Source: Vampirovibrionales bacterium (GTDB lineage Bacteria > Cyanobacteriota > Vampirovibrionia > Vampirovibrionales > JAJTHC01). Taken from it: DNA of 64,000 nt. The notes beneath the pieces are model-generated. The model was not told where the DNA came from. It searched no databases and was given only the letters and a program-made list of their open reading frames with translations. This document shows, one piece after another, positions 2,755-58,590 of the stretch. Numbering within the stretch: position 1 is the stretch's first letter; each line of letters opens with the position of its first letter. Location of the stretch: the NCBI GenBank assembly GCA_044348005.1, contig JBIKTR010000005.1:11991-75990 (forward strand), given 5' to 3'. Made by a program: the position numbers and the translations under genes.

Positions 2755-5505
2755 TTATTCGTCGAACTCGCCAAGGGAATTCAAGAGCTTATCGTCGTCT
2801 CCAGTTAACAATGCGACAACTTGAACACGTAAATCATGTAAAAGAAGACGCAAACCTTTTCTCTTTTTATGTTCAGTGGCAGTTGAACCTCTGGAGCCTA
2901 TTCGGCCGGCTTCACCCTGTGAAAGATCCGTGAGGCTTTCCACATTAGTTCGACCTGCATCCTTGAGATTAAAAGGAATAGGCTCGGCAGACGGAATAAC
3001 CTGTGGCGTTACTCTCTGCACAAGGTCGCCCCCCCTTCCTGCTGGTGCTTGTGCTCCTGCTCCTGCTCCTGCTTGTGCTACTGGTGCTGTTCCTGCTCCT
3101 ACTGTTGGTGCTTGTCGTGCTGGTGTTGCTGATGCTGGTGCTGGTGTTGCTGATGTTGGTGCTGGTGCTGGTGCTGGTGTTGCTGATGTTGTTGCTTCTT
3201 TTATTGCTTGTCGTGCTTGAACAACTTTGTCTGAATAATCAGGTTGGGCATCAAGATATTTCTGTGCGTAACGTTGTTCTATACGACTGTTATTATGCTT
3301 TTTGCCGAATTCGGCAAGGGCAAATAGTGCATCTTCATTTGCTGAGTCACGCTTTAAAAGTGACCTAACTGCCTTGTAGGCTTTTACGCATTCTTTCTTA
3401 TTACCAGTTTGTGAAGCCTGATCATATTGGCTTTTCGCCAAGGTGACAATACTTGTTCGTATAGATGTTAAATCAGAAGATAGCCTATGATTATGAATAA
3501 GAGGATCCAACGAGCTGTTAGTCGCTTGCTCAATGGATTGGATTACTCTCACTACTTCAGCTTCCATTTGTTCAGATACTTTAATGGCTTTAGAGTACTC
3601 TTTTTTTGCTACATGTAGCCCAGCTAGTTTTTCTAATACATTTCGTACTTGTGTATTGGGACTATTAACCAATGCTAAACGTTCCTGTAATAAAGCTATA
3701 GCTCTATCAGGGTTTGTTGATTTATATAAGTCGGCCAGATCTTCTAGTAATATAAACCGAAGATTTGTATGATTGTTCTTTGTAGCAATTGCTTGAACAA
3801 GGGTTTCGTAGAAGCCAATTTTATTAGCCCCTCTAAGATCATTTGGAATTAACTTATCTAATTTTCCTTCACCCGAACTCAATGTAATTAAAATATCATT
3901 AATCTGTTTCAGTAAGGGTTCTTTATCCAATTTTGGATTTCTTTGAAGGGCGGACACAGCTACCTTAATTGCACGATAAGGCTCGCCTGCTTGTAAAACT
4001 TTAGCAACCCTTGCAGACGCCCTTGAGGCATCCTGAGGTAAAGCTTGGGCTGATTTGCCTGGTGACAATAGGCCTGCTATTGGCTTTGGTAGTAGGCCTA
4101 CCGTTTCTGGTCGTGCTGGTACTGGTGTTTTAACTCTTGGTGCTACTGGTGATGCTGGTAGTGATGCTGGTGTTGTTGATGCTGGTGGTCCTGTTGGTGC
4201 TTCTGCTCCTGCATTTCCTGCTCCTGCTCCTGATGCTGTTGGTGTTCCTGCTGATGCTTGTGTTCCTGCTGATGTTGTTGGTGTAGGTGCTGGTGTTGCT
4301 GGTGGTTTTGGTGCTGCTGATGCTGATGCTGTTGGTGCTGATGGTTTTGCTGTTGTTGCTGGTGAGTCTAGGTTTATATTTCGACTCAAAGTGTCAGGGA
4401 GTTCTTGCCCTGACACTTGAAGAGTTGGTATTGAATTTGGTCTAAATGGTTCTTGATTTTGCAGAATAACATCCCCATTAAGTGGGATTGGTTCTGCATT
4501 TGCTCGTTGGAACCCTAGATTAACATCTCCTGCTCCTGCTGTTGTTGCTAGTGCTGGTGCTGGTGTTGCTGATGCTGTTGGTGGTGCTTGTACTGGTGCT
4601 ACTGGTGCTACTGTTCCTGCTCCTGCATTTCTTGCTGGTGCTACTGGTTTTGGTGAGTCTAGGTCTATATGTTGACTCAAAGGGTCAGGGAGTTCTTCCC
4701 CTGACACGTGAAGAGTTTCTGTTGCATCTGATTTAATACTAGGAACAAATTCTTTTTGAATTGTCATTGATTCAAATGGTTTATCACTGTTGACTAATTG
4801 CAGATTAACATTCCCCTTAAGTGGGATTGGTTCTGCATTTGCTCGTTGCAACCCTAGATTAACATCTCCTGCTCCTGCTGGGGCTGCTGGTGCTTCTAGA
4901 TTGGAGAAGCTATTACCACCGCCACTACCACCACCACCACCACCACTGTGGCGAGCTGCTGCAGCTGGGCGCGGGGTAGTAACTTGTTTTACAGCTTCGT
5001 CAACAGAAGCAAGAGGAGGCGTCGGCCCATCTACTTCTCTTTTTAAAAAGCCAAAGGTTTTTTCCAAAAACTCTCCGACGTCTTGACGTCTCCACAATAA
5101 TAGGCCCGCCGTGGTAAGGGCAGCGGCGCCTATGGCCACGTTTCTCACCGTATGGTCTTCTTCTTGAGGCGGTGTTGTTTTGGTGGGTGCTGTGACTTTC
5201 GCAGGTGGCACGGTTTTTTGAGCCACAGGGTGGTGTTCGGCAGGTGGCGTCAAAGGACTCGTCGCCGACGAAGACGAAGAGTGAACCTCTGCCCCAGTCT
5301 TCAAATCAACAGGCGAAGGCGTGGGGGCATAGTTTAATGCGGTAGAATCCACAACGGGCGCTGGGCCTGTGTTCCTCGGGTAAAGATCCGCAGAAGATGC
5401 TCCTTGATTCAAAAGCGGTAACGTGGATGCCAAGGGGGGGGGGGGGGCGAACGCAGATTGTGGCGCTTGAGTAAACGAAAAACTATTCATATTGTTCATA
5501 GCCAT
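2755..5505 (-). CDS. Large Pro/Ala/Thr-rich repetitive protein (putative surface or secreted)
   Basis: 916 aa. Low-complexity PAPAPT/ATPAP runs are encoded by (GCTGGT)n-type DNA repeats. Two tandem ~115-aa repeats (GAGDVNLG.QRANAEPIPL...) are present. The C-terminal part looks helical, with a TPR-like composition. Confidence 0.6.
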   Translation of the reverse strand: MAMNNMNSFSFTQAPQSAFAPPPPLASTLPLLNQGASSADLYPRNTGPAPVVDSTALNYAPTPSPVDLKTGAEVHSSSSSATSPLTPPAEHHPVAQKTVPPAKVTAPTKTTPPQEEDHTVRNVAIGAAALTTAGLLLWRRQDVGEFLEKTFGFLKREVDGPTPPLASVDEAVKQVTTPRPAAAARHSGGGGGGSGGGNSFSNLEAPAAPAGAGDVNLGLQRANAEPIPLKGNVNLQLVNSDKPFESMTIQKEFVPSIKSDATETLHVSGEELPDPLSQHIDLDSPKPVAPARNAGAGTVAPVAPVQAPPTASATPAPALATTAGAGDVNLGFQRANAEPIPLNGDVILQNQEPFRPNSIPTLQVSGQELPDTLSRNINLDSPATTAKPSAPTASASAAPKPPATPAPTPTTSAGTQASAGTPTASGAGAGNAGAEAPTGPPASTTPASLPASPVAPRVKTPVPARPETVGLLPKPIAGLLSPGKSAQALPQDASRASARVAKVLQAGEPYRAIKVAVSALQRNPKLDKEPLLKQINDILITLSSGEGKLDKLIPNDLRGANKIGFYETLVQAIATKNNHTNLRFILLEDLADLYKSTNPDRAIALLQERLALVNSPNTQVRNVLEKLAGLHVAKKEYSKAIKVSEQMEAEVVRVIQSIEQATNSSLDPLIHNHRLSSDLTSIRTSIVTLAKSQYDQASQTGNKKECVKAYKAVRSLLKRDSANEDALFALAEFGKKHNNSRIEQRYAQKYLDAQPDYSDKVVQARQAIKEATTSATPAPAPAPTSATPAPASATPARQAPTVGAGTAPVAQAGAGAGAQAPAGRGGDLVQRVTPQVIPSAEPIPFNLKDAGRTNVESLTDLSQGEAGRIGSRGSTATEHKKRKGLRLLLHDLRVQVVALLTGDDDKLLNSLGEFDE
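5434..5447. repeat. Homopolymeric G14 tract (poly-C on coding strand) inside the 5' end of CDS 2755..5505
   Basis: Direct read of 14 consecutive G. On the coding strand it encodes PPPP at about residues 20-24. Confidence 0.9.
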
Positions 5506-5630
5506 GTGTGGTAATTCCCTAAAAAGTTACGCGAAGAAATGCCTAATTTATACTTCACAATAACATAAAAACAAAAACACCACAAAATTGTGCCACCACT
5601 TTTTTTAAAAAGAAAAAAGCCCCCCAACGA

Positions 5631-6719: not shown

Positions 6720-7721
6720 CTAGCGAATGCCTTTAAGCGGTGTCATGGCGTCTTGGGGGGGTGGGGCAACCAGCCCTAAAAAGGCGTAAGACTTAGCGTT
6801 TTCAGGGGTTTCCGTCGTCACCACGGGGGAGGTTCCACCGCTAAACATCGGTGATGTTTCGGGCAATTTGGCGTAACTGGGGTGTTCCACCACAAAGCGA
6901 TGCAGGTCGTTTTTTTCCAAATAGCGCGCAATTTCATTGAGCCTAAACACCAAGGGGTGGGCGTTGAGTCTGTTTTCGTTGAGTTCAGGGTACTTTTTCA
7001 GAAAGAAGAGCCATGTTCGGGCTTCACGCATCCAGGCTTGTGCCTCTTCCTGCTTGGAATTGTGGGCATCGCTGTGCATGGCTTCATGCGCAATAAGGGC
7101 GGAAAGTGCTGGTATGGGAGCATTTTGGTGCTTTTCGTTGATGAAAAGCATCCAGTTGCCGTGTTTGTCAAGCCACGCAAGCGCGTCGAAATAGCGGTAT
7201 AGCGGGGAAAGTTCTTCGAGGTTTTTAAACAAGACTTTGCCTCGTTTGGCGTGCAATATAGCCAGTGATTGCACGCCTTCAGGGGATTCACCCATCATGA
7301 TGAGGGCTTTGGCGAGGGTGTCACTAGAAGTGAGGGTGATCCATGGTGGGGGGGCACCAATGGCGGGCAAAACGACAGGTGTTTCAATCGCCGTGCGGGT
7401 TTGAACAGTCGGGAGACTGAGAAAATTGACCGCCGTTTGAGCGCTGGCAGAGGGGGTGGCTTGCAGGTACACCCGCTGTTGGTGCGGAGGAGTCGGGGTG
7501 GGGGGGAGCATGGCATAGGCTGAAGATGATTGCCACCATTGCGTTTTAGTCATTTCTGCCTGAGCCCTATTGACCTGAACGAAGCTGATGATGGGGTACA
7601 GCAGTAGAAGCGTCAAGCCTAAAGCACTTGTGAGCATTTGAAATGGCGTTAAACGAGCAAGCATGCGGGTTTCCCTTTTGTAGAGGGTAGGGTGTGCGTG
7701 TGATGCTTCTTCTTCGACCAA
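6720..7721 (-). CDS. Hypothetical membrane-anchored protein with HExxH motif (possible zinc metalloprotease-like)
   Basis: 333 aa with an N-terminal TM segment. HEAMH motif in LIAHEAMHSD. It lies inside the IR-bounded segment. Confidence 0.4.
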   Translation of the reverse strand: MVEEEASHAHPTLYKRETRMLARLTPFQMLTSALGLTLLLLYPIISFVQVNRAQAEMTKTQWWQSSSAYAMLPPTPTPPHQQRVYLQATPSASAQTAVNFLSLPTVQTRTAIETPVVLPAIGAPPPWITLTSSDTLAKALIMMGESPEGVQSLAILHAKRGKVLFKNLEELSPLYRYFDALAWLDKHGNWMLFINEKHQNAPIPALSALIAHEAMHSDAHNSKQEEAQAWMREARTWLFFLKKYPELNENRLNAHPLVFRLNEIARYLEKNDLHRFVVEHPSYAKLPETSPMFSGGTSPVVTTETPENAKSYAFLGLVAPPPQDAMTPLKGIR

Positions 7722-8491: not shown

Positions 8492-10102
8492 ATGCCACAA
8501 GCCCCCCTTAATGAGGAACCTGCATCCATGCCTTTTTGGAAAACCAATTGGAAAATTACAAAAATTACGTTTGCGGTATGTACTCTATTATTGAAGGGTT
8601 TTACAACTCTATTTATTTATTCATTCCTATGGAAATTTAAACCAAAACCTCATTATAAAACCTTTTGGGGAAGTGTTGGAAGTTTTGTGCTTACAGCACT
8701 TTTAGTGCTTGTCGTTTTACTTGTTTCTTCTTGGGTTGTAACCTCTGATTTCATAAGCTCTTTAAACTTTTTACACTTGACTACTTCAAATGATGTGAAT
8801 GTCTTTTTAACACTTTTGGTATACGCCTTGACTCTTGCTGTTTTAATACAAACCCTTGACTCTCAACGAGCCTCTGCAGAACGGACGGCTCGTATGGAAA
8901 TGGCGAAGGTATTGACGGAGGCCTTTAGTCATAGTGAAATGTTTGAAGCTATTGAGTATTTCTTGCAGGTGTCACCTTATCTAGTTGATAAAAATGGAAA
9001 AGGTCGTCAAGTTTATATTGAAGAAATCAACGAAAAACCCGAAACTAAAAAATACCGTTACCGAATACTGACCACCTTACACCATGCCGAACGGCTTTAT
9101 AAAACTGAAAAAGCAGATACAGCCTTATTTACGAGTTTAATAACGCCTGACATTGTAGAAGTGGCTTTATGCTTGTACCAACTGGACGACTATATGAAAG
9201 ACGTCGATAAACCTGTTTATGAAATGGTGTATAGGGTGTTTGAAGACATTCGCACCTCTTATCTCGCACCTTATGCGAAAGCCGTTCAAAATAAAAAAGA
9301 AATCAATTCCAAGAAATTACAACACATTCGTCGTATTTTATGTAGTCTTCAAAAGTGGGACAAAGAATGGGGTGATGAAGGCGATATTATCTTAACAGAT
9401 GTTGATTTAATTATGGTTTATTTAATTGATGAAAAGTACAGCTTGGTTGCTTATAAAAATATTTCAAACGAACTCAATCTTCTTGATAAACGATTTGAAG
9501 CCTTAGCTAAGGATTCTAAAAGTACAAAGCCTTTTAAGCGATTTGCGGATCTTTATTTTTTGCGTGCAGATGGGAAATGTGAGCAAAAAGATTATAAAGG
9601 TGCCATTCAGGATTACACTAAATCCATTGAACTAAATCCTAAGAATATCTATACATATAGTAATCGAGGAATTAATCAAGTTAGATTAGGAAACTACCTC
9701 GAAGCTATAAAAGATTTTGATAAAGCGATTATATTAGACCCTAAATTCATTGGAGGGTATTGTAACCGAGGGATTGCCAAATACAACTTAGCACAATATG
9801 AAGAAGCGATAGACGATTATAACCAAGCTATTGAACTCAACCCTGAAGATGACGATGCCTACTACTTGCGAGGGCTTGCCAAAGACGACTTAGAAAAATA
9901 TGAAGAAGCTGTTGTTGATTACACCAAAGCCATTGATCTTGACCCTCAACATGCCGATGCGTACAACAATCGAGCGTTGACTTATCAGCAAATGGCTCAA
10001 CAGGCGAGAGCTAAGGGTAATCACACTGAAGGGAAAGATCTTGAATCTAAAGCCCAAGCCGATTTTGCTCAAGCAAAACGACTTGAATCTGAAAAACAAT
10101 AG
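8492..10102 (+). CDS. TPR-repeat protein with N-terminal transmembrane segments
   Basis: Multiple 34-aa TPR-like units (…AIQDYTKSIELNPKN…, …AIDDYNQAIELNPED…). The gene is AT-rich, and the true start may be at 8528. Confidence 0.6.
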   Translation: MPQAPLNEEPASMPFWKTNWKITKITFAVCTLLLKGFTTLFIYSFLWKFKPKPHYKTFWGSVGSFVLTALLVLVVLLVSSWVVTSDFISSLNFLHLTTSNDVNVFLTLLVYALTLAVLIQTLDSQRASAERTARMEMAKVLTEAFSHSEMFEAIEYFLQVSPYLVDKNGKGRQVYIEEINEKPETKKYRYRILTTLHHAERLYKTEKADTALFTSLITPDIVEVALCLYQLDDYMKDVDKPVYEMVYRVFEDIRTSYLAPYAKAVQNKKEINSKKLQHIRRILCSLQKWDKEWGDEGDIILTDVDLIMVYLIDEKYSLVAYKNISNELNLLDKRFEALAKDSKSTKPFKRFADLYFLRADGKCEQKDYKGAIQDYTKSIELNPKNIYTYSNRGINQVRLGNYLEAIKDFDKAIILDPKFIGGYCNRGIAKYNLAQYEEAIDDYNQAIELNPEDDDAYYLRGLAKDDLEKYEEAVVDYTKAIDLDPQHADAYNNRALTYQQMAQQARAKGNHTEGKDLESKAQADFAQAKRLESEKQ

Positions 10103-11082: not shown

Positions 11083-12153
11083 ATGAATGCCACCACGTCT
11101 TTAAGTCCTGAACACCTCAACACCCTTGAAGTTCAAGCCATTGCTCAACTCAACGCTTGTGCGAATCTCACTGAACTTGAACACGCGAAGGTCGAACTCT
11201 TGGGCCGCAGCGGAAGCCTGACCCTGTTGAAACGAGGCTTGAAAGACGTGCCTGCCGAAGATCGCCCGCAGGTAGGGGCCCTGCTGAATGCCCTGTCTCA
11301 AGCCGTGGAAGTCGTGCATGACGAGATTAAAGCACGCTTGGACGCCGACGCCTTAGCGCTTCAATTACACGCCGAAACGCTGGATGTCACCATGCCGGGG
11401 CGCCATGTGCCAGTAGGCAAGGTGCATCCACTGAGCCAGATTACGGAAGACGTCTGCCGGTTGTTTGAAGGCATGGGCTTTAGCGTGTTAGACGACAACG
11501 CCTGCCCCGAAGTGGAAACCGAGTTCTTCAACTTTGAAGCCCTCAACTTCCCAGCCGATCACCCGGCTCGAGACATGCAAGACACCTACTATACGGAAGT
11601 CGCCAGCCACGTGTTGTTGCGTTCGCAAACCAGCAATGCGCAGATTCGCCATATGAGCCAGCACAAACCGCCGATTCGTGTGATTGCTCCAGGGCGGGTG
11701 TATCGCAACGAAGAAGTGAGCAGTCGCAAGTATGTGTTGTTTCATCAGATTGAAGGGCTTTATGTGGACAAACACGTCACCTTTGCCGATTTAAAAGGCA
11801 CGCTCAATGCGTTTATCACCGAATTGTTTGGTGGTAATGAACGCCCCACGCGTTTTCGCCCCAGCTATTTCCCTTTCACCGAACCGAGTGCGGAAGTCGA
11901 TGTGCAATGCCTTTTCTGCCAAGGCGAAGGGTGCAAGGTCTGCGGTCATAGCGGATGGCTTGAGATCTTGGGGGCTGGCATGGTTCACCCCAACGTGCTA
12001 GAAAACTGCGGGATCGATTCGACGGTGTATCAAGGTTTTGCTTTCGGCATGGGCGTCGAACGATTGGCAATGTTGCGCGATGCCATTGACGACATCCGCA
12101 TTTTTTACACCAACGATCAACGTTTCCTCAAGCAATTCAAACCCAAGTACTAA
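11083..12153 (+). CDS. pheS: Phenylalanine--tRNA ligase alpha subunit
   Basis: Class II aaRS motifs, a FPFTEPS-type motif, and a typical pheS C-terminal core. Note that pheT does not follow. Confidence 0.9.
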   Translation: MNATTSLSPEHLNTLEVQAIAQLNACANLTELEHAKVELLGRSGSLTLLKRGLKDVPAEDRPQVGALLNALSQAVEVVHDEIKARLDADALALQLHAETLDVTMPGRHVPVGKVHPLSQITEDVCRLFEGMGFSVLDDNACPEVETEFFNFEALNFPADHPARDMQDTYYTEVASHVLLRSQTSNAQIRHMSQHKPPIRVIAPGRVYRNEEVSSRKYVLFHQIEGLYVDKHVTFADLKGTLNAFITELFGGNERPTRFRPSYFPFTEPSAEVDVQCLFCQGEGCKVCGHSGWLEILGAGMVHPNVLENCGIDSTVYQGFAFGMGVERLAMLRDAIDDIRIFYTNDQRFLKQFKPKY

Positions 12154-12176
12154 CAGACTGAAGGATTTAAATTTGT

Positions 12177-13742
12177 ATGCAGCTAAGCCTTTTAGAAAAG
12201 TCCACCTTTTCTGCTCAAACCATTTCTGAAGAGTTGGGTGTATGCCTTTCGACGGTGTCAAATTGGTTGAAATCAGGTATGCTTAAGGGAAGTTTAAAGG
12301 CTATCTCTAAAGACTCTTACCTCTACTTCAAAAAAAACTATTTAGGCACTCAAAAACTTAATAAACGTGCTAATAAATTACACATAACTCCTTCATTACT
12401 GGAGGCAAGTTTGCTTACTTTTGAAAATTACGAGCAAAGTCTTCCTGCTTCTTTTCGTAATTTTGAAGGTATTTTTTATACCCCCGCTCATATCATAGAA
12501 AATTTATGTGACCAAATTGAAACATCATTTCCAACATGGAGCGACTTAATTGTTTGTGACCCTTGTTGTGGGACTGGAAATTTCCTAGCAGAAGCCTACA
12601 AGCGCGGGGTTCCGCTTAATCAACTTTATGGATATGATACCGATGAAAAAGCCATTGAGCTAGCAAAAAATCGTTTTTTTGATTTGACAGGGCAATACCC
12701 TCAGCATTTAACTTGTTTGGATTTTATAGAAAATCCACCTTCATATATTCAATTTGATTTAATCATGACGAATCCTCCATGGGGTAAAAAAGCTTACAAA
12801 AATAAAACAACCCAGAACTCTTTGGAACTTGTTTTGTACAATGCATTTCGTTGTATCAAGGAAGAAGGAAAGCTTGCCTTTGTATTACCTGATTCTTTCG
12901 CCACAACTCAAGCTTTTGAAGATCTAAGAATATGGCTTCTAAAACAAAATATATCCTATTTGGCTGATTATGGGAAAGCGTTTTCTGAGATCCAAAATAA
13001 AGCCTATGGGATTATTTTCTCGCCTCAAAACAAACAGGCTGTTTCAAATGATTTTATAACGCTTTCTAATGAAAAAGGACGGCAGGCTTTAGTTAAAACA
13101 GATTTTCAAAATATGCCTAAGCATATTTTTAATTTTTCTGCGACATCGCAGATGTATACGCTTTATAAACATTTACTTAACCATCCTCACACAACTCTAG
13201 TGCAAAAGGCTGATTGGGCTTTAGGCATTGTAACAGGTCATAATGATCGTTATATTAAAAATACACAAGAAGAAGGATATGTTCCTATTGTGAGGGGAAA
13301 AGATCTCAAAAAAGAAGGGTGCCTCGTAAAATGTATGCCAACTGCCTATTTACTAAATGACTTATCTTCCATGCAGCAAGTGGCAAGTCTTAATTTTTAT
13401 CAATCTCCTAAAAAAATAGTGTACAAATTCATTACCAAGAAGCTTTGTTTTTATGTCGATACGTCTAAAAGTTATGTCCTTAATAGTGCTAATATCCTCA
13501 TTCCTGATTGTGAAGTATTAGGAATCAATATGGAACAGTTGGTTTTTTTGTTTAATACGAGCTTATATACATGGTTGCATCAATTTATGTTTGACACTCA
13601 TAAAATTTTAAGATCAGATTTAGAGCAGTTGCCTATTTATAAAGATTATTTTGATACTCATCTTTATTATGATGAAGCTTCACTATACCAATTTCTGAAC
13701 ATAAAGGAAAATCATGATGGAACTTTTAGCATTAAAAAATGA
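12177..13742 (+). CDS. N6-adenine DNA methyltransferase (gamma class) with N-terminal HTH, restriction-modification associated
   Basis: Motif I DPCCGTGNFL, motif IV NPPW (MTNPPWGKK), and an N-terminal HTH (TISEELGVCLSTVSNWLKSG). The gene is strongly AT-rich relative to its flanks. Confidence 0.7.
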   Translation: MQLSLLEKSTFSAQTISEELGVCLSTVSNWLKSGMLKGSLKAISKDSYLYFKKNYLGTQKLNKRANKLHITPSLLEASLLTFENYEQSLPASFRNFEGIFYTPAHIIENLCDQIETSFPTWSDLIVCDPCCGTGNFLAEAYKRGVPLNQLYGYDTDEKAIELAKNRFFDLTGQYPQHLTCLDFIENPPSYIQFDLIMTNPPWGKKAYKNKTTQNSLELVLYNAFRCIKEEGKLAFVLPDSFATTQAFEDLRIWLLKQNISYLADYGKAFSEIQNKAYGIIFSPQNKQAVSNDFITLSNEKGRQALVKTDFQNMPKHIFNFSATSQMYTLYKHLLNHPHTTLVQKADWALGIVTGHNDRYIKNTQEEGYVPIVRGKDLKKEGCLVKCMPTAYLLNDLSSMQQVASLNFYQSPKKIVYKFITKKLCFYVDTSKSYVLNSANILIPDCEVLGINMEQLVFLFNTSLYTWLHQFMFDTHKILRSDLEQLPIYKDYFDTHLYYDEASLYQFLNIKENHDGTFSIKK

Positions 13743-14313
13743 GATAAAAGATTGTTTCAAAGGAACAGCGGAAGAATGGCTACAATTAGAAGAATTACTT
13801 GAGGAAGATTCGAGCGTTTACCCCTTCAATAGTTTTGAATATCTTTTTCAACTTTGTACCTCTCAAAAGAAAATGACCTTTGAAGAATACCTAGAAATTC
13901 GTACTAGTTATATTCAACAGAATCCGAACTTGTGGATTTTTGAGATTGCTTCCCCTACTAAGTTTGGTATCAATTTTGCCCAAACCTACATTAAGGGAAT
14001 GGCTCCTTTTTTAGAAAAGCCATCTAAAAAAATAGACCCAACTTATAATAACGAGTATGATTTTTGGTATAAAGGTCTGCGTATTGAAGTAAAGGCGTCT
14101 CGTGTGGTACATAAAACTCTGGAAACGCCTCTTTATATCAAGGCTCTTGCCTCAAATACGCAAGAACCTTTTTTAATGAATTTTCCACAACTAAAGCCTG
14201 CTTGTTGTGATCTCTTTATTTGGGTTGCTGTTTTTAGAGACACTATTAAAGCATGGATAATGCCATCTTCTGTTGTACAAGATCATGCTTTATATGCAAA
14301 AGGGCAACATTGA
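13714..14313 (+). CDS. Putative small type II restriction endonuclease (PD-(D/E)xK-like) partner of the methyltransferase
   Basis: Overlaps the MTase stop, so it is operonic. The D…EVK pattern (EYDFWYKGLRIEVK) is consistent with a PD-(D/E)xK core. AT-rich. Confidence 0.35.
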   Translation: MMELLALKNEIKDCFKGTAEEWLQLEELLEEDSSVYPFNSFEYLFQLCTSQKKMTFEEYLEIRTSYIQQNPNLWIFEIASPTKFGINFAQTYIKGMAPFLEKPSKKIDPTYNNEYDFWYKGLRIEVKASRVVHKTLETPLYIKALASNTQEPFLMNFPQLKPACCDLFIWVAVFRDTIKAWIMPSSVVQDHALYAKGQH

Positions 14314-55077: not shown

Positions 55078-55304
55078 ACCTTTCCTTTGGGGGGGGGGAC
55101 TTACGCATCATACCAAAAACATACCCATTATAAAATAGGCTTTTGTGATTGGCATTCATTTTTTCTGCATTTTTTAAGGGAGCTTCTCAAGAATTACTTG
55201 TTTCATGGCAAAGTCGTGCTAAACTGGTGTAAGACGCTATATGCCCTTGTTGTGAGGGGTTGTGTCTTTAAAATAGAGATAGCTAGTTTAGGAGATTTAG
55301 GCAA

Positions 55305-57855: not shown

Positions 57856-58590
57856 CTAGATCTTCCCCCCAGATCGCTTCAACAGTTTGACCACCGCAGT
57901 CTGTTGGCGTTCCATGGCCCAGGCCAAAGGGGTTTTGCCGTCTTTGTCTTGGGCATTAATGTTCGCCCCATTCAACAGCAACACATACACAATGTCGATA
58001 TATCCAAAAGCACTGGCCAAATGCAAAGGCGTCAAGCGTCGTTCACGCTCAACAACATTCACCTTCGCCCCGTGTTGCAATAAATCCTTGGCAATTTCAA
58101 AATGGCCGTTCTTACAGGCATATAACAAGGGGGTATCATCAAGCAAGTAAGCATCTACAGCATTGACGTTTGCCCCATGCGCAATCAGTGTTTTTACGAC
58201 GTCTACATGCCCGTTTTGGCTGGCGTTAATCAGAGGGGTACGCCCATAAGGGTTGCTCGCATCAACCGCAACGCCTTTTTCAAGCAGGGCTTTAACGATG
58301 TCGTTATTTCCCAACAAACTCGCCGTGTGCAACGGGGTGGCTCCGTCCGCATCAGCGACGTTTAGTTCACGCTTTGTGGCCAGCAGACGTTTGACTTGTT
58401 TGAGATCCTCCGCTTGAATGGCTTGATTCAAGGGATTGTGGTGTAGAGAGGGCTTTGCGCGTTTAAAGGGTGAAAACACTCCTAACCACGCGGGTTTTTC
58501 AAAGGCTTGTGCCATACCCGCACCGTGAAGGATTAAGCCACACAAGGCAAGGGTGAAAAGTCGTTTAAGCACAGGGGGATGTATTTTCAT
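57856..58590 (-). CDS. Secreted ankyrin-repeat protein
   Basis: Signal peptide followed by at least 5 ANK repeats (GATPLHTASLLGNNDIVKALLEKGVAVDA…). Confidence 0.75.
   Translation of the reverse strand: MKIHPPVLKRLFTLALCGLILHGAGMAQAFEKPAWLGVFSPFKRAKPSLHHNPLNQAIQAEDLKQVKRLLATKRELNVADADGATPLHTASLLGNNDIVKALLEKGVAVDASNPYGRTPLINASQNGHVDVVKTLIAHGANVNAVDAYLLDDTPLLYACKNGHFEIAKDLLQHGAKVNVVERERRLTPLHLASAFGYIDIVYVLLLNGANINAQDKDGKTPLAWAMERQQTAVVKLLKRSGGKI

What the first reader, a model, noticed from the sequence alone, without database searches (positions are those of the whole stretch)
5434..5447. G14 homopolymer tract inside the 5' coding region of the 916-aa repetitive Pro/Ala/Thr-rich protein: candidate slipped-strand phase-variation switch
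A run of 14 G (poly-C on the coding strand, encoding PPPP at about residue 20) lies just downstream of the start codon of a large low-complexity, probably surface-exposed protein. Tracts this long are highly mutable, and a ±1 change would toggle the reading frame. This is the mechanism that switches pmp-type and other surface proteins on and off in several pathogens.
Basis: partly seen in the sequence, partly recalled or inferred. Interest (0 to 1): 0.55.

Follow-up and report, generated by a model that had tools for sequence, protein, structure and literature searches.

The report
Variable poly-C tract gating a membrane-protein gene
A run of 14 identical bases sits at codons 20-24 of a large orphan protein gene in an uncultured lake bacterium (Vampirovibrionales), and public assemblies of the same gene carry 14, 13 or 11 bases, so it looks like an ordinary slipped-strand on/off switch found in a bacterial lineage where none has been described.

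Summary
The G14 run at 5434-5447 is real. It is C14 on the coding strand, spanning codons 20-24 (A-PPPP) of the 916-aa ORF 2755..5505(-), and it is far longer than chance allows. The N-terminus is genuinely coding: five distinct homologues keep the frame open and all their indels are multiples of 3. A change of ±1 base stops translation after 31 or 66 aa.

Public contigs show the tract varies:
- A contig that otherwise differs from the window at one base in 5.8 kb has C13, which is out of frame.
- A second haplotype has C11, in frame.
- A 96.7%-identical strain and the paralogues carry interrupted runs (C4AC3, C3AC7, C9AC4, C12GACCT), all in frame.

CCC is a rare proline codon elsewhere in this gene (5 of 91), so coding need does not explain the run.

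The gene belongs to a small mosaic family in a Vampirovibrionales lineage. Members share a near-identical promoter and N-terminal module but have different C-terminal parts.

The best reading is a slipped-strand contingency locus, a known mechanism in a new lineage. All length evidence comes from short-read metagenome consensus sequences, and assemblies visibly struggle at this tract. "Surface-exposed" is not shown, and the protein is not pmp-like.

The parts
5434..5447 (-). C14 homopolymer (G14 on the + strand), bases 59-72 of the ORF, codons 20-24 (A-PPPP). Proposed slipped-strand switch.
   Evidence: Length variants of the same gene are C13 in L009 and C11 in L002.
2755..5505 (-). 916-aa ORF (ATG at 5505) for an orphan low-complexity protein: conserved N-terminal module, one hydrophobic segment, P/A/T-rich repeats, TPR-like helical domain, second P/A-rich stretch, charged C-terminus.
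   Evidence: An NCBI source holds the 916-aa call; JGI called 832 aa from an internal TTG. No Pfam, NCBIfam or PDB sequence match.
4875..5595 (-). Family-wide 5' module: about 90 nt of upstream (promoter/5' UTR) sequence plus the first ~210 codons. It is shared with paralogues that have different C-terminal parts and sit at a different locus, next to thrS.
   Evidence: blastn gives 80.7% identity to L004/L005 over window 5595-4875 and 82-83% to L003/L006 over 5576-5034. The ~60 nt before the ATG and the first ~110 coding nt are nearly identical. Several contigs end at window ~5563-5566, as expected for a repeat-induced break.
5409..5411 (-). TGA stop reached in the -1 state (C13, C10, C16), giving a 30-32-aa peptide.
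   Evidence: Observed in L009, where ORF 4834..4929 reads MAMNNMNSFSFTQAPQSAFAPPPPWYPRYRF*.
5306..5308 (-). TGA stop reached in the +1 state (C15, C12), giving a 64-67-aa peptide.
   Evidence: and the sequence.
5092..5151 (-). Codons 119-138 (VRNVAIGAAALTTAGLLLWR). This is the only hydrophobic segment, a possible membrane anchor, and is followed by an RR pair.
   Evidence: Kyte-Doolittle 19-residue maximum of 1.38 at residues 119-120. Conserved in all homologues.
3184..4053 (-). Residues 485-774: all-helical, TPR-like repeat domain.
   Evidence: Single-sequence AlphaFold2 model with 14 helices and mean pLDDT 65.7. The best Foldseek PDB matches are TPR superhelices, but weak (E >= 2.4e-3, TM 0.3-0.39). 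93.9% DNA identity to the corresponding part of P0002 in L003.

Best explanation
The C14 run is a hypermutable simple-sequence tract in the first 25 codons of a strain-variable, mosaic membrane-associated protein gene of a freshwater Vampirovibrionales bacterium.

Proposed mechanism: slipped-strand mispairing during replication adds or removes C residues. Lengths of 3n+2 (11, 14, 17) read through to the 916-aa protein (ON). All other lengths end translation after about 31 or 66 aa (OFF). The population would then carry a heritable, reversible mixture of expressing and non-expressing cells.

Shown:
- The tract and its position.
- The surrounding sequence is coding.
- The effect of ±1 on the frame.
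- Length polymorphism, including one out-of-frame allele, among near-identical natural haplotypes.
- Purity of the run against the gene's own codon preference.

Inferred:
- That the length changes are biological rather than technical.
- That they are frequent and reversible.
- That switching is advantageous, for example for varying a prey-contact or phage-receptor protein.
For: 1. Position and frame effect.

2. The N-terminus is coding. Five distinct sequences (window, L003, L004, L006, L008) keep the ATG and an open frame. All five indel positions in the first 100 codons are multiples of 3, and residues such as LASTLPLLNQG and PVVDSTA are conserved.

3. Same gene, different lengths.
- L009 (JGI 3300042515, interior of a 17.2-kb contig) aligns to the window over 5,795 nt with only one gap and one mismatch. 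The gap makes the tract C13 and the mismatch lies 5 nt after it. The ORF then stops after 31 aa.
- L002 (JGI 3300042470) has C11. Apart from that 3-nt gap it differs at one base in 3.4 kb. Its upstream partner contig L010 carries linked differences: G7 instead of G6 at 5621-5626, an A-to-C change at 5516, and about 1% divergence. It is therefore a separate haplotype and not a re-read of the same DNA.

4. Relatives carry interrupted or differently sized runs at the same codons, all in frame: C4AC3 in L007/L008, the orthologue in a 96.7%-identical strain; C3AC7 in L004/L005; C9AC4 in L003; C12GACCT in L006. This pattern fits repeated expansion, contraction and interruption under selection to keep an ORF.

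5. Codon usage. Pro in this gene is 62% CCA and 9.5% CCC, and 4 of the 9 CCC codons are in the tract. Four consecutive CCC are not what coding need predicts.

6. The architecture resembles described contingency genes: a small paralogous, mosaic family with a constant promoter/N-terminal module and variable repetitive bodies.

7. G/C tracts of this size drive such switching in Neisseria, Campylobacter and Chlamydia pmpG. In pmpG, frameshifted and intact alleles with variable polyG/polyC lengths cluster together (PMC5084427, PMC3025981, PMC6740158).
Against: - Every length comes from a consensus of short-read metagenome assemblies. A ±1 difference in a 13-14-nt G/C run is the commonest PCR or sequencing stutter error.
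- Assemblies have visible trouble here. L010 ends at the first base of the tract in poly-G junk joined to unrelated DNA. L002 starts 19 nt before the tract, so its C11 sits at a contig end.
- Only one out-of-frame allele was seen among seven distinct alleles, and no read-level data were available.
- A control tract, C10 upstream of the mtnA-like gene, had the same length in the one other contig found.
- Long G/C runs also occur next to housekeeping genes in this lineage (mtnA-like, thrS), so such runs are not specific to variable genes.
- Nothing shows that the protein is exposed or under fluctuating selection.
Confidence: 0.55

Rival explanations
1. Technical variation. The genomic tract is stable, at C14 or some other single length, and the C13 and C11 calls are library-PCR stutter, sequencing or assembly errors at a long G/C homopolymer. 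The tract is then just an unusual but fixed poly-Pro codon run.
For: - L010 ends in poly-G junk and a chimeric join exactly at the tract.
- L002's C11 lies 19 nt from a contig end.
- The L009 difference is the error-typical -1.
- Several contigs break near here.
Against: - C11 differs by 3 nt, which is not a typical stutter product. It belongs to a haplotype with linked SNPs and a second indel upstream.
- The L009 C13 is about 900 nt inside a 17-kb contig and is accompanied by an adjacent base change.
- Evolutionary comparison shows five further states at the same codons, so the site changes much faster than its flanks.
Confidence: 0.2
2. Non-adaptive mutational hotspot. The run is truly unstable, but only as a by-product of runaway slippage in a Pro-coding C-rich patch. 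Out-of-frame alleles are simply deleterious or mark the start of pseudogenisation in a fast-evolving, dispensable gene family. There is no selected switch.
For: - The N-terminal module evolves fast, with non-synonymous changes outnumbering synonymous ones in every pair.
- The family is tiny and lineage-restricted.
- A related strain manages with interrupted, stable runs at both paralogues.
- G/C runs also sit beside housekeeping genes.
Against: - Six of seven alleles stay in frame.
- The L009 OFF allele shows no further decay: it is identical to the window across the 5.8 kb compared, apart from the tract and the adjacent base. That fits a recent, reversible event.
- Long pure runs recur independently at both loci: C11-14 here and C12 in L006.
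Confidence: 0.17
3. An expression-level effect rather than a DNA switch. Either RNA-polymerase slippage on the C14/G14 template gives a mixed mRNA population, or ribosome stalling on PPPP (EF-P dependence) tunes the yield. Alternatively the true start is the internal TTG at codon 85 (the JGI call), which would make the tract a 5'-UTR element.
For: - JGI called the gene from TTG codon 85, giving 832 aa.
- From established knowledge, consecutive prolines stall ribosomes and long homopolymers permit reiterative transcription.
Against: - The JGI caller also splits an identical sequence that ENA calls as one 919-aa gene, so its start choice is unreliable.
- Frame-preserving indels and conserved residues upstream of codon 85 show that this region is translated.
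- Homologues replace PPPP with PPHP, HPP or PPPRP, so a four-proline stall motif is not conserved.
Confidence: 0.08

Closest known systems
Intragenic poly-G/C contingency loci of Neisseria meningitidis/gonorrhoeae and Campylobacter jejuni (e.g. lgt, pilC, capsule and flagellar-modification genes)
   Same: - A pure G/C homopolymer inside the 5' part of an ORF.
- A ±1 change gives an early stop.
- Tract length differs between closely related genomes (PMC5084427, PMC3025981).
   Different: - The host is an uncultured environmental Vampirovibrionales bacterium and not a host-adapted pathogen.
- Switching rate and reversibility are untested.
- The gene product is an orphan protein with no known function.
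- Only one such intragenic tract was seen in 64 kb.
Chlamydia pmpG-group polymorphic membrane protein genes with polyG/polyC tracts (C. pneumoniae pmp10, C. abortus, C. psittaci)
   Same: A paralogous, fast-evolving family in which homopolymer length varies and in-frame and frameshifted alleles sit on otherwise near-identical backgrounds (PMC6740158).
   Different: - No autotransporter beta-barrel, no GGA(I/L/V)/FxxN repeats and no signal peptide. Pfam finds nothing.
- The organism is unrelated.
- The tract is at codons 20-24, not in mid-gene.
Mycoplasma variable lipoprotein families (e.g. M. hyorhinis vlp, M. pulmonis vsa; from my own knowledge)
   Same: A family whose members share a highly conserved promoter plus N-terminal module, followed by divergent repetitive low-complexity bodies, with a homopolymer in the constant module acting as the switch.
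   Different: - In vlp the tract is poly-A in the promoter, a transcriptional switch. Here it is poly-C in the ORF, a translational switch.
- There is no lipoprotein signal here.
- Only two loci per genome were detected.

Membership tests
Simple-sequence (slipped-strand) phase-variable / contingency locus | Uninterrupted repeat tract long enough to be hypermutable. In-silico screens use homopolymers of 6 or more (PMC5084427). | tested here: met
   Pure C14. Cut-off taken.
Simple-sequence (slipped-strand) phase-variable / contingency locus | The tract is placed where a length change alters expression, either within the ORF (frame) or in the promoter (spacing). | tested here: met
   Bases 59-72 of an ORF whose N-terminus is conserved and frame-preserved in five homologues. 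A ±1 change gives 31- or 66-aa products.
Simple-sequence (slipped-strand) phase-variable / contingency locus | Tract length is polymorphic between closely related genomes, including ON and OFF states. | tested here: inconclusive
   C14 (ON), C13 (OFF, L009) and C11 (ON, L002) on haplotypes at least 99.9% identical. All are short-read metagenome consensus calls at a site where assemblies fail.
Simple-sequence (slipped-strand) phase-variable / contingency locus | High-frequency, reversible switching within a clonal population, seen as read-level or colony-level heterogeneity. | not testable with these tools
   No reads or cultures were available. The organism is known only from metagenomes.
Simple-sequence (slipped-strand) phase-variable / contingency locus | The product is a surface or host-interaction (or restriction-modification) function that benefits from stochastic expression. 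| tested here: inconclusive
   One moderately hydrophobic segment and no signal peptide. TPR-like helical domain. No family match. Mosaic, strain-variable family.
Chlamydial polymorphic membrane proteins (Pmp) | C-terminal autotransporter beta-barrel with a Pmp middle domain and repeat motifs. | tested here: not met
   No Pfam hit at E <= 0.01 for the 916-aa protein. The modelled central domain (residues 485-774) is all-helical.
Chlamydial polymorphic membrane proteins (Pmp) | Encoded by Chlamydiota. | tested here: not met
   The closest genome record is a Vampirovibrionales MAG, JBIKNF010000007. Its lineage is Candidatus Melainabacteria.

The most novel reading that the evidence does not exclude
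Vampirovibrionales are non-photosynthetic relatives of cyanobacteria, and the cultured member preys on algae. The most novel reading is that they run a genuine contingency-gene system. It would be a small family of mosaic membrane or effector proteins with a shared promoter/N-terminal cassette, whose members recombine their bodies and are individually switched ON and OFF by a poly-C tract at codons 20-24. That would diversify prey-contact or phage-receptor phenotypes in lake populations. It would be the first phase-variation system described in the Cyanobacteriota/Melainabacteria group and one of few in free-living environmental bacteria. Existing lake metagenome time series could test it.
Probability: 0.25. 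Interest if true: 0.6.

Novelty: new member of a known kind. Interest (0 to 1): 0.4.

Why it matters
Phase variation by homopolymer slippage has been worked out almost entirely in host-adapted pathogens. A clear case in an uncultured freshwater Vampirovibrionales bacterium would show that the same bet-hedging device operates in environmental, possibly predatory, bacteria. It would also flag this orphan mosaic protein family as the likely interface with prey or phage.

There is a practical lesson too. The tract and the shared 5' module break assemblies and mislead gene callers. The same DNA gives 832-aa versus 916-aa calls, and 547+181-aa versus 919-aa calls. Such loci are therefore under-reported in metagenome-assembled genomes.

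Tried and rejected
Searches that led nowhere:
- The exact-flank pattern scan of metagenome contigs found nothing. A peptide-pattern scan with the N-terminal alignment also found nothing. That collection evidently lacks the samples that hold L002 and L005.
- The search for homologous proteins with the 160-aa N-terminus returned nothing. The 1.84-billion-representative phmmer search with the 210-aa N-terminus returned 0 hits. Local phmmer scores P0002 and P0003 above 200 bits with the same query, so these nulls reflect library content and not a lack of similarity.
- A third protein search with P0003 recovered only the same three proteins.
- Look-ups of the GH9 neighbour and the 314-aa upstream gene gave no further contigs crossing the tract.
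- Rfam found no RNA family in the window.
- Pfam, NCBIfam and PDB sequence searches gave no family for the protein.
- No second copy of the 5' module exists in the window.

Ideas rejected:
- That the 832-aa JGI protein reflects a frameshifted allele. It is a start-codon choice on identical DNA.
- That the L007 versus L008 gene-call difference marks a second switch. The two sequences differ by one SNP, which lies outside the gene.
- That contig ends at window ~5563 mark the tract. They mark the start of the paralogous repeat.
- A chlamydial origin or pmp membership.
Full report
**Observation**

The + strand carries exactly 14 G at 5434-5447. It is the longest homopolymer in the window; the next are G10, A9 and G8. 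G-run counts drop about 3-fold per extra base, so a 14-mer is expected fewer than 0.001 times by extrapolation.

On the minus strand the run is bases 59-72 of ORF 2755..5505 (ATG start, 916 aa). It reads GCC CCC CCC CCC CCC TTG, i.e. A20-PPPP-L25. The protein is A/P/S/T-rich and full of imperfect short tandem repeats.

**Organism and context**

An exact-flank pattern scan of one genome per species found a single hit. It is a paralogous gene in a Vampirovibrionales MAG (JBIKNF010000007), whose record title carries the JGI metagenome number 3300035681. The lineage is Candidatus Melainabacteria.

The window is ordinary chromosome. It encodes pheS, ribonucleotide reductase, dnaE, isocitrate dehydrogenase, hemE and trehalose-phosphate synthase.

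The target gene sits between an orphan 235-aa gene and a GH9 glycosidase plus a GT2 cellulose-synthase-like gene.

**Is the tract in translated sequence?**

JGI called the same DNA as an 832-aa protein from an internal TTG. An NCBI source holds the 916-aa version on a contig of the same length, 141.9 kb. The JGI caller is unreliable on these genes: L007 and L008 are identical across the gene, yet are called 547+181 aa and 919 aa respectively.

Five distinct homologues (window, L003, L004, L006, L008) keep the ATG and an open frame. All indels in the first 100 codons are multiples of three, and blocks such as LASTLPLLNQG and APVVDSTA are conserved. Substitutions are only mildly biased to third positions, so the module evolves fast, but it is coding.

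**Consequence of slippage**

Simulated lengths of 8, 11, 14, 17 and 20 C give the full protein. The -1 class stops at TGA 5409-5411 after about 31 aa. The +1 class stops at TGA 5306-5308 after about 66 aa.

**Does the length vary?**

Look-ups of the exact neighbouring proteins retrieved independent public contigs of the same locus.

| Source | Locus | Tract | Frame |
|---|---|---|---|
| Window | this gene | C14 | in frame |
| L009 (JGI 3300042515) | this gene, same haplotype | C13 | out of frame |
| L002 (JGI 3300042470) | this gene, second haplotype | C11 | in frame |
| L007/L008 | orthologue, 96.7%-identical strain | GCTCCTCCCCACCC (C4AC3, APPHP) | in frame |
| L004/L005 | thrS-adjacent paralogue | C3AC7 | in frame |
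| L003 | thrS-adjacent paralogue | C9AC4 | in frame |
| L006 | thrS-adjacent paralogue | C12GACCT | in frame |

- **L009** matches the window over 5,795 nt with one gap and one mismatch. The gap shortens the tract to C13, and the mismatch lies 5 nt beyond it (TTGGTATCC instead of TTGGCATCC). The ORF from the ATG ends after 31 aa.
- **L002** has C11. Apart from that 3-nt gap it differs at one base in 3.4 kb. The upstream contig of that sample, L010, carries linked differences from the window (G7 instead of G6 at 5621-5626, an A-to-C change at 5516, about 1% divergence), so it is another haplotype.
- **The thrS-adjacent paralogues** coexist with the GH9-adjacent gene in the same samples.

In total there are seven distinct states at one codon position, six in frame and one out of frame. 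The flanks are invariant across all of these sequences except L007/L008, where the neighbouring codons also differ.

**Codon evidence**

Elsewhere in this gene proline is 62% CCA, and only 5 of 91 Pro codons are CCC. Four consecutive CCC preceded by GCC therefore do not follow from coding need. Slippage-driven expansion, selection for a mutable run, or both, fit better.

**Caveats**

- All lengths are consensus calls from short-read metagenome assemblies.
- L010 stops at the first base of the tract and continues as poly-G junk fused to unrelated DNA. L002 begins 19 nt before the tract.
- A -1 difference is the classic stutter error.
- The one control available, C10 at 55089-55098, had the same length in another contig.
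- G/C runs of 9-10 also lie just 5' of housekeeping genes. The mtnA-like gene has one, and thrS has a run that is C9 in one strain and C6 in others.
- I could not obtain reads, so heterogeneity within a population, rate and reversibility remain untested.

**What the gene is**

No Pfam, NCBIfam or PDB sequence match was found. The parts are:

- N-terminal module of about 160 aa, with no signal-peptide-like start.
- One moderately hydrophobic segment at residues 119-138, followed by RR.
- Two P/A/T-rich repeat regions.
- A helical domain at residues 485-774. The model has mean pLDDT 65.7, and its best but weak fold matches are TPR superhelices.

The family is mosaic.

- The promoter and N-terminal module (window 5595-4875) is shared at 81-83% identity, and is near-identical around the start codon, with genes that have quite different bodies.
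- The TPR-like part is 93.9% identical to part of P0002, which has a different middle region and an extra C-terminal domain.
- Contigs commonly end at the start of this shared module, which is a repeat-induced break.
- Database searches recover only these few proteins.

**Mechanism and comparison**

The best explanation is a slipped-strand translational ON/OFF switch, as in the intragenic poly-G/C contingency loci of Neisseria and Campylobacter and the polyG/polyC tracts of chlamydial pmpG genes (PMC5084427, PMC3025981, PMC6740158).

Membership of the general class is met for tract, placement and frame effect. It is inconclusive for natural ON/OFF polymorphism and untestable here for reversibility. 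The protein is not a Pmp. The shared-5'-module architecture also recalls Mycoplasma vlp/vsa families (my own knowledge). No paper in the library links phase variation to Vampirovibrio or Melainabacteria.

**Verdict**

This is a known mechanism, probably operating in a new lineage and on an orphan mosaic gene family. It is moderately interesting, and the public read sets named above can test it directly.

Noticed in passing
window 55089-55098: G10 (C10 on the - strand) lies 20 nt upstream of the ATG (55068) of an IF-2B/MtnA-like gene, just 5' of an AAAGGAAAGG ribosome-binding-like stretch. It is the second-longest G/C run in the window. It has the same length in the one other contig found (L020).
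   Followed up: partly
L004 5807-5815; L006 and L003 equivalent positions: A C-run directly 5' of the thrS start codon is C9 in one strain and C6 in two others. A second homopolymer next to the paralogue locus therefore also varies in length between strains.
   Followed up: partly
window 5621-5626 and 5516: An intergenic G6, just upstream of the target gene's conserved promoter module, is G7 in contigs L010 and L014. It is linked to an A-to-C change at 5516 that matches the paralogue's version of the module.
   Followed up: partly
window 4875-5595 versus L003, L004/L005, L006: The promoter plus N-terminal module is shared between genes at two loci (GH9-adjacent and thrS-adjacent). The gene bodies are mosaic: the TPR-like part is 94% identical to P0002, while the other parts are unrelated. 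This suggests recombination or gene conversion within the family.
   Followed up: partly
window 6720-7721 (-): The upstream orphan Pro-rich 333-aa ORF contains three C7 runs (6755, 7348, 7500). That is 3 of the 10 seven-base G/C runs in the 64 kb.
   Followed up: no
window 12000-14300: A low-GC stretch (35% against about 47%) holds a TaqI-like/N6 DNA methyltransferase (12177..13742) and an unassigned 199-aa ORF. It is probably an acquired restriction-modification island.
   Followed up: no
window 8492-10102: This TPR-repeat protein gene (GC 37.6%) varies between strains. It is only about 78% identical to L007/L008 while its neighbours are 90-97% identical, and its product is 536 aa versus 472 and 460 aa.
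   Followed up: no
window 57856-58590 (-): A 244-aa ankyrin-repeat protein. Such eukaryote-like repeat proteins are typical of bacteria that interact with eukaryotic cells.
   Followed up: no
L010 4893-5119; L007 versus L008: Two data-quality points. Contig L010 becomes poly-G junk fused to unrelated GC-rich DNA exactly at the tract. JGI gene calls split these low-complexity genes where ENA and NCBI call one ORF on identical DNA.
   Followed up: yes
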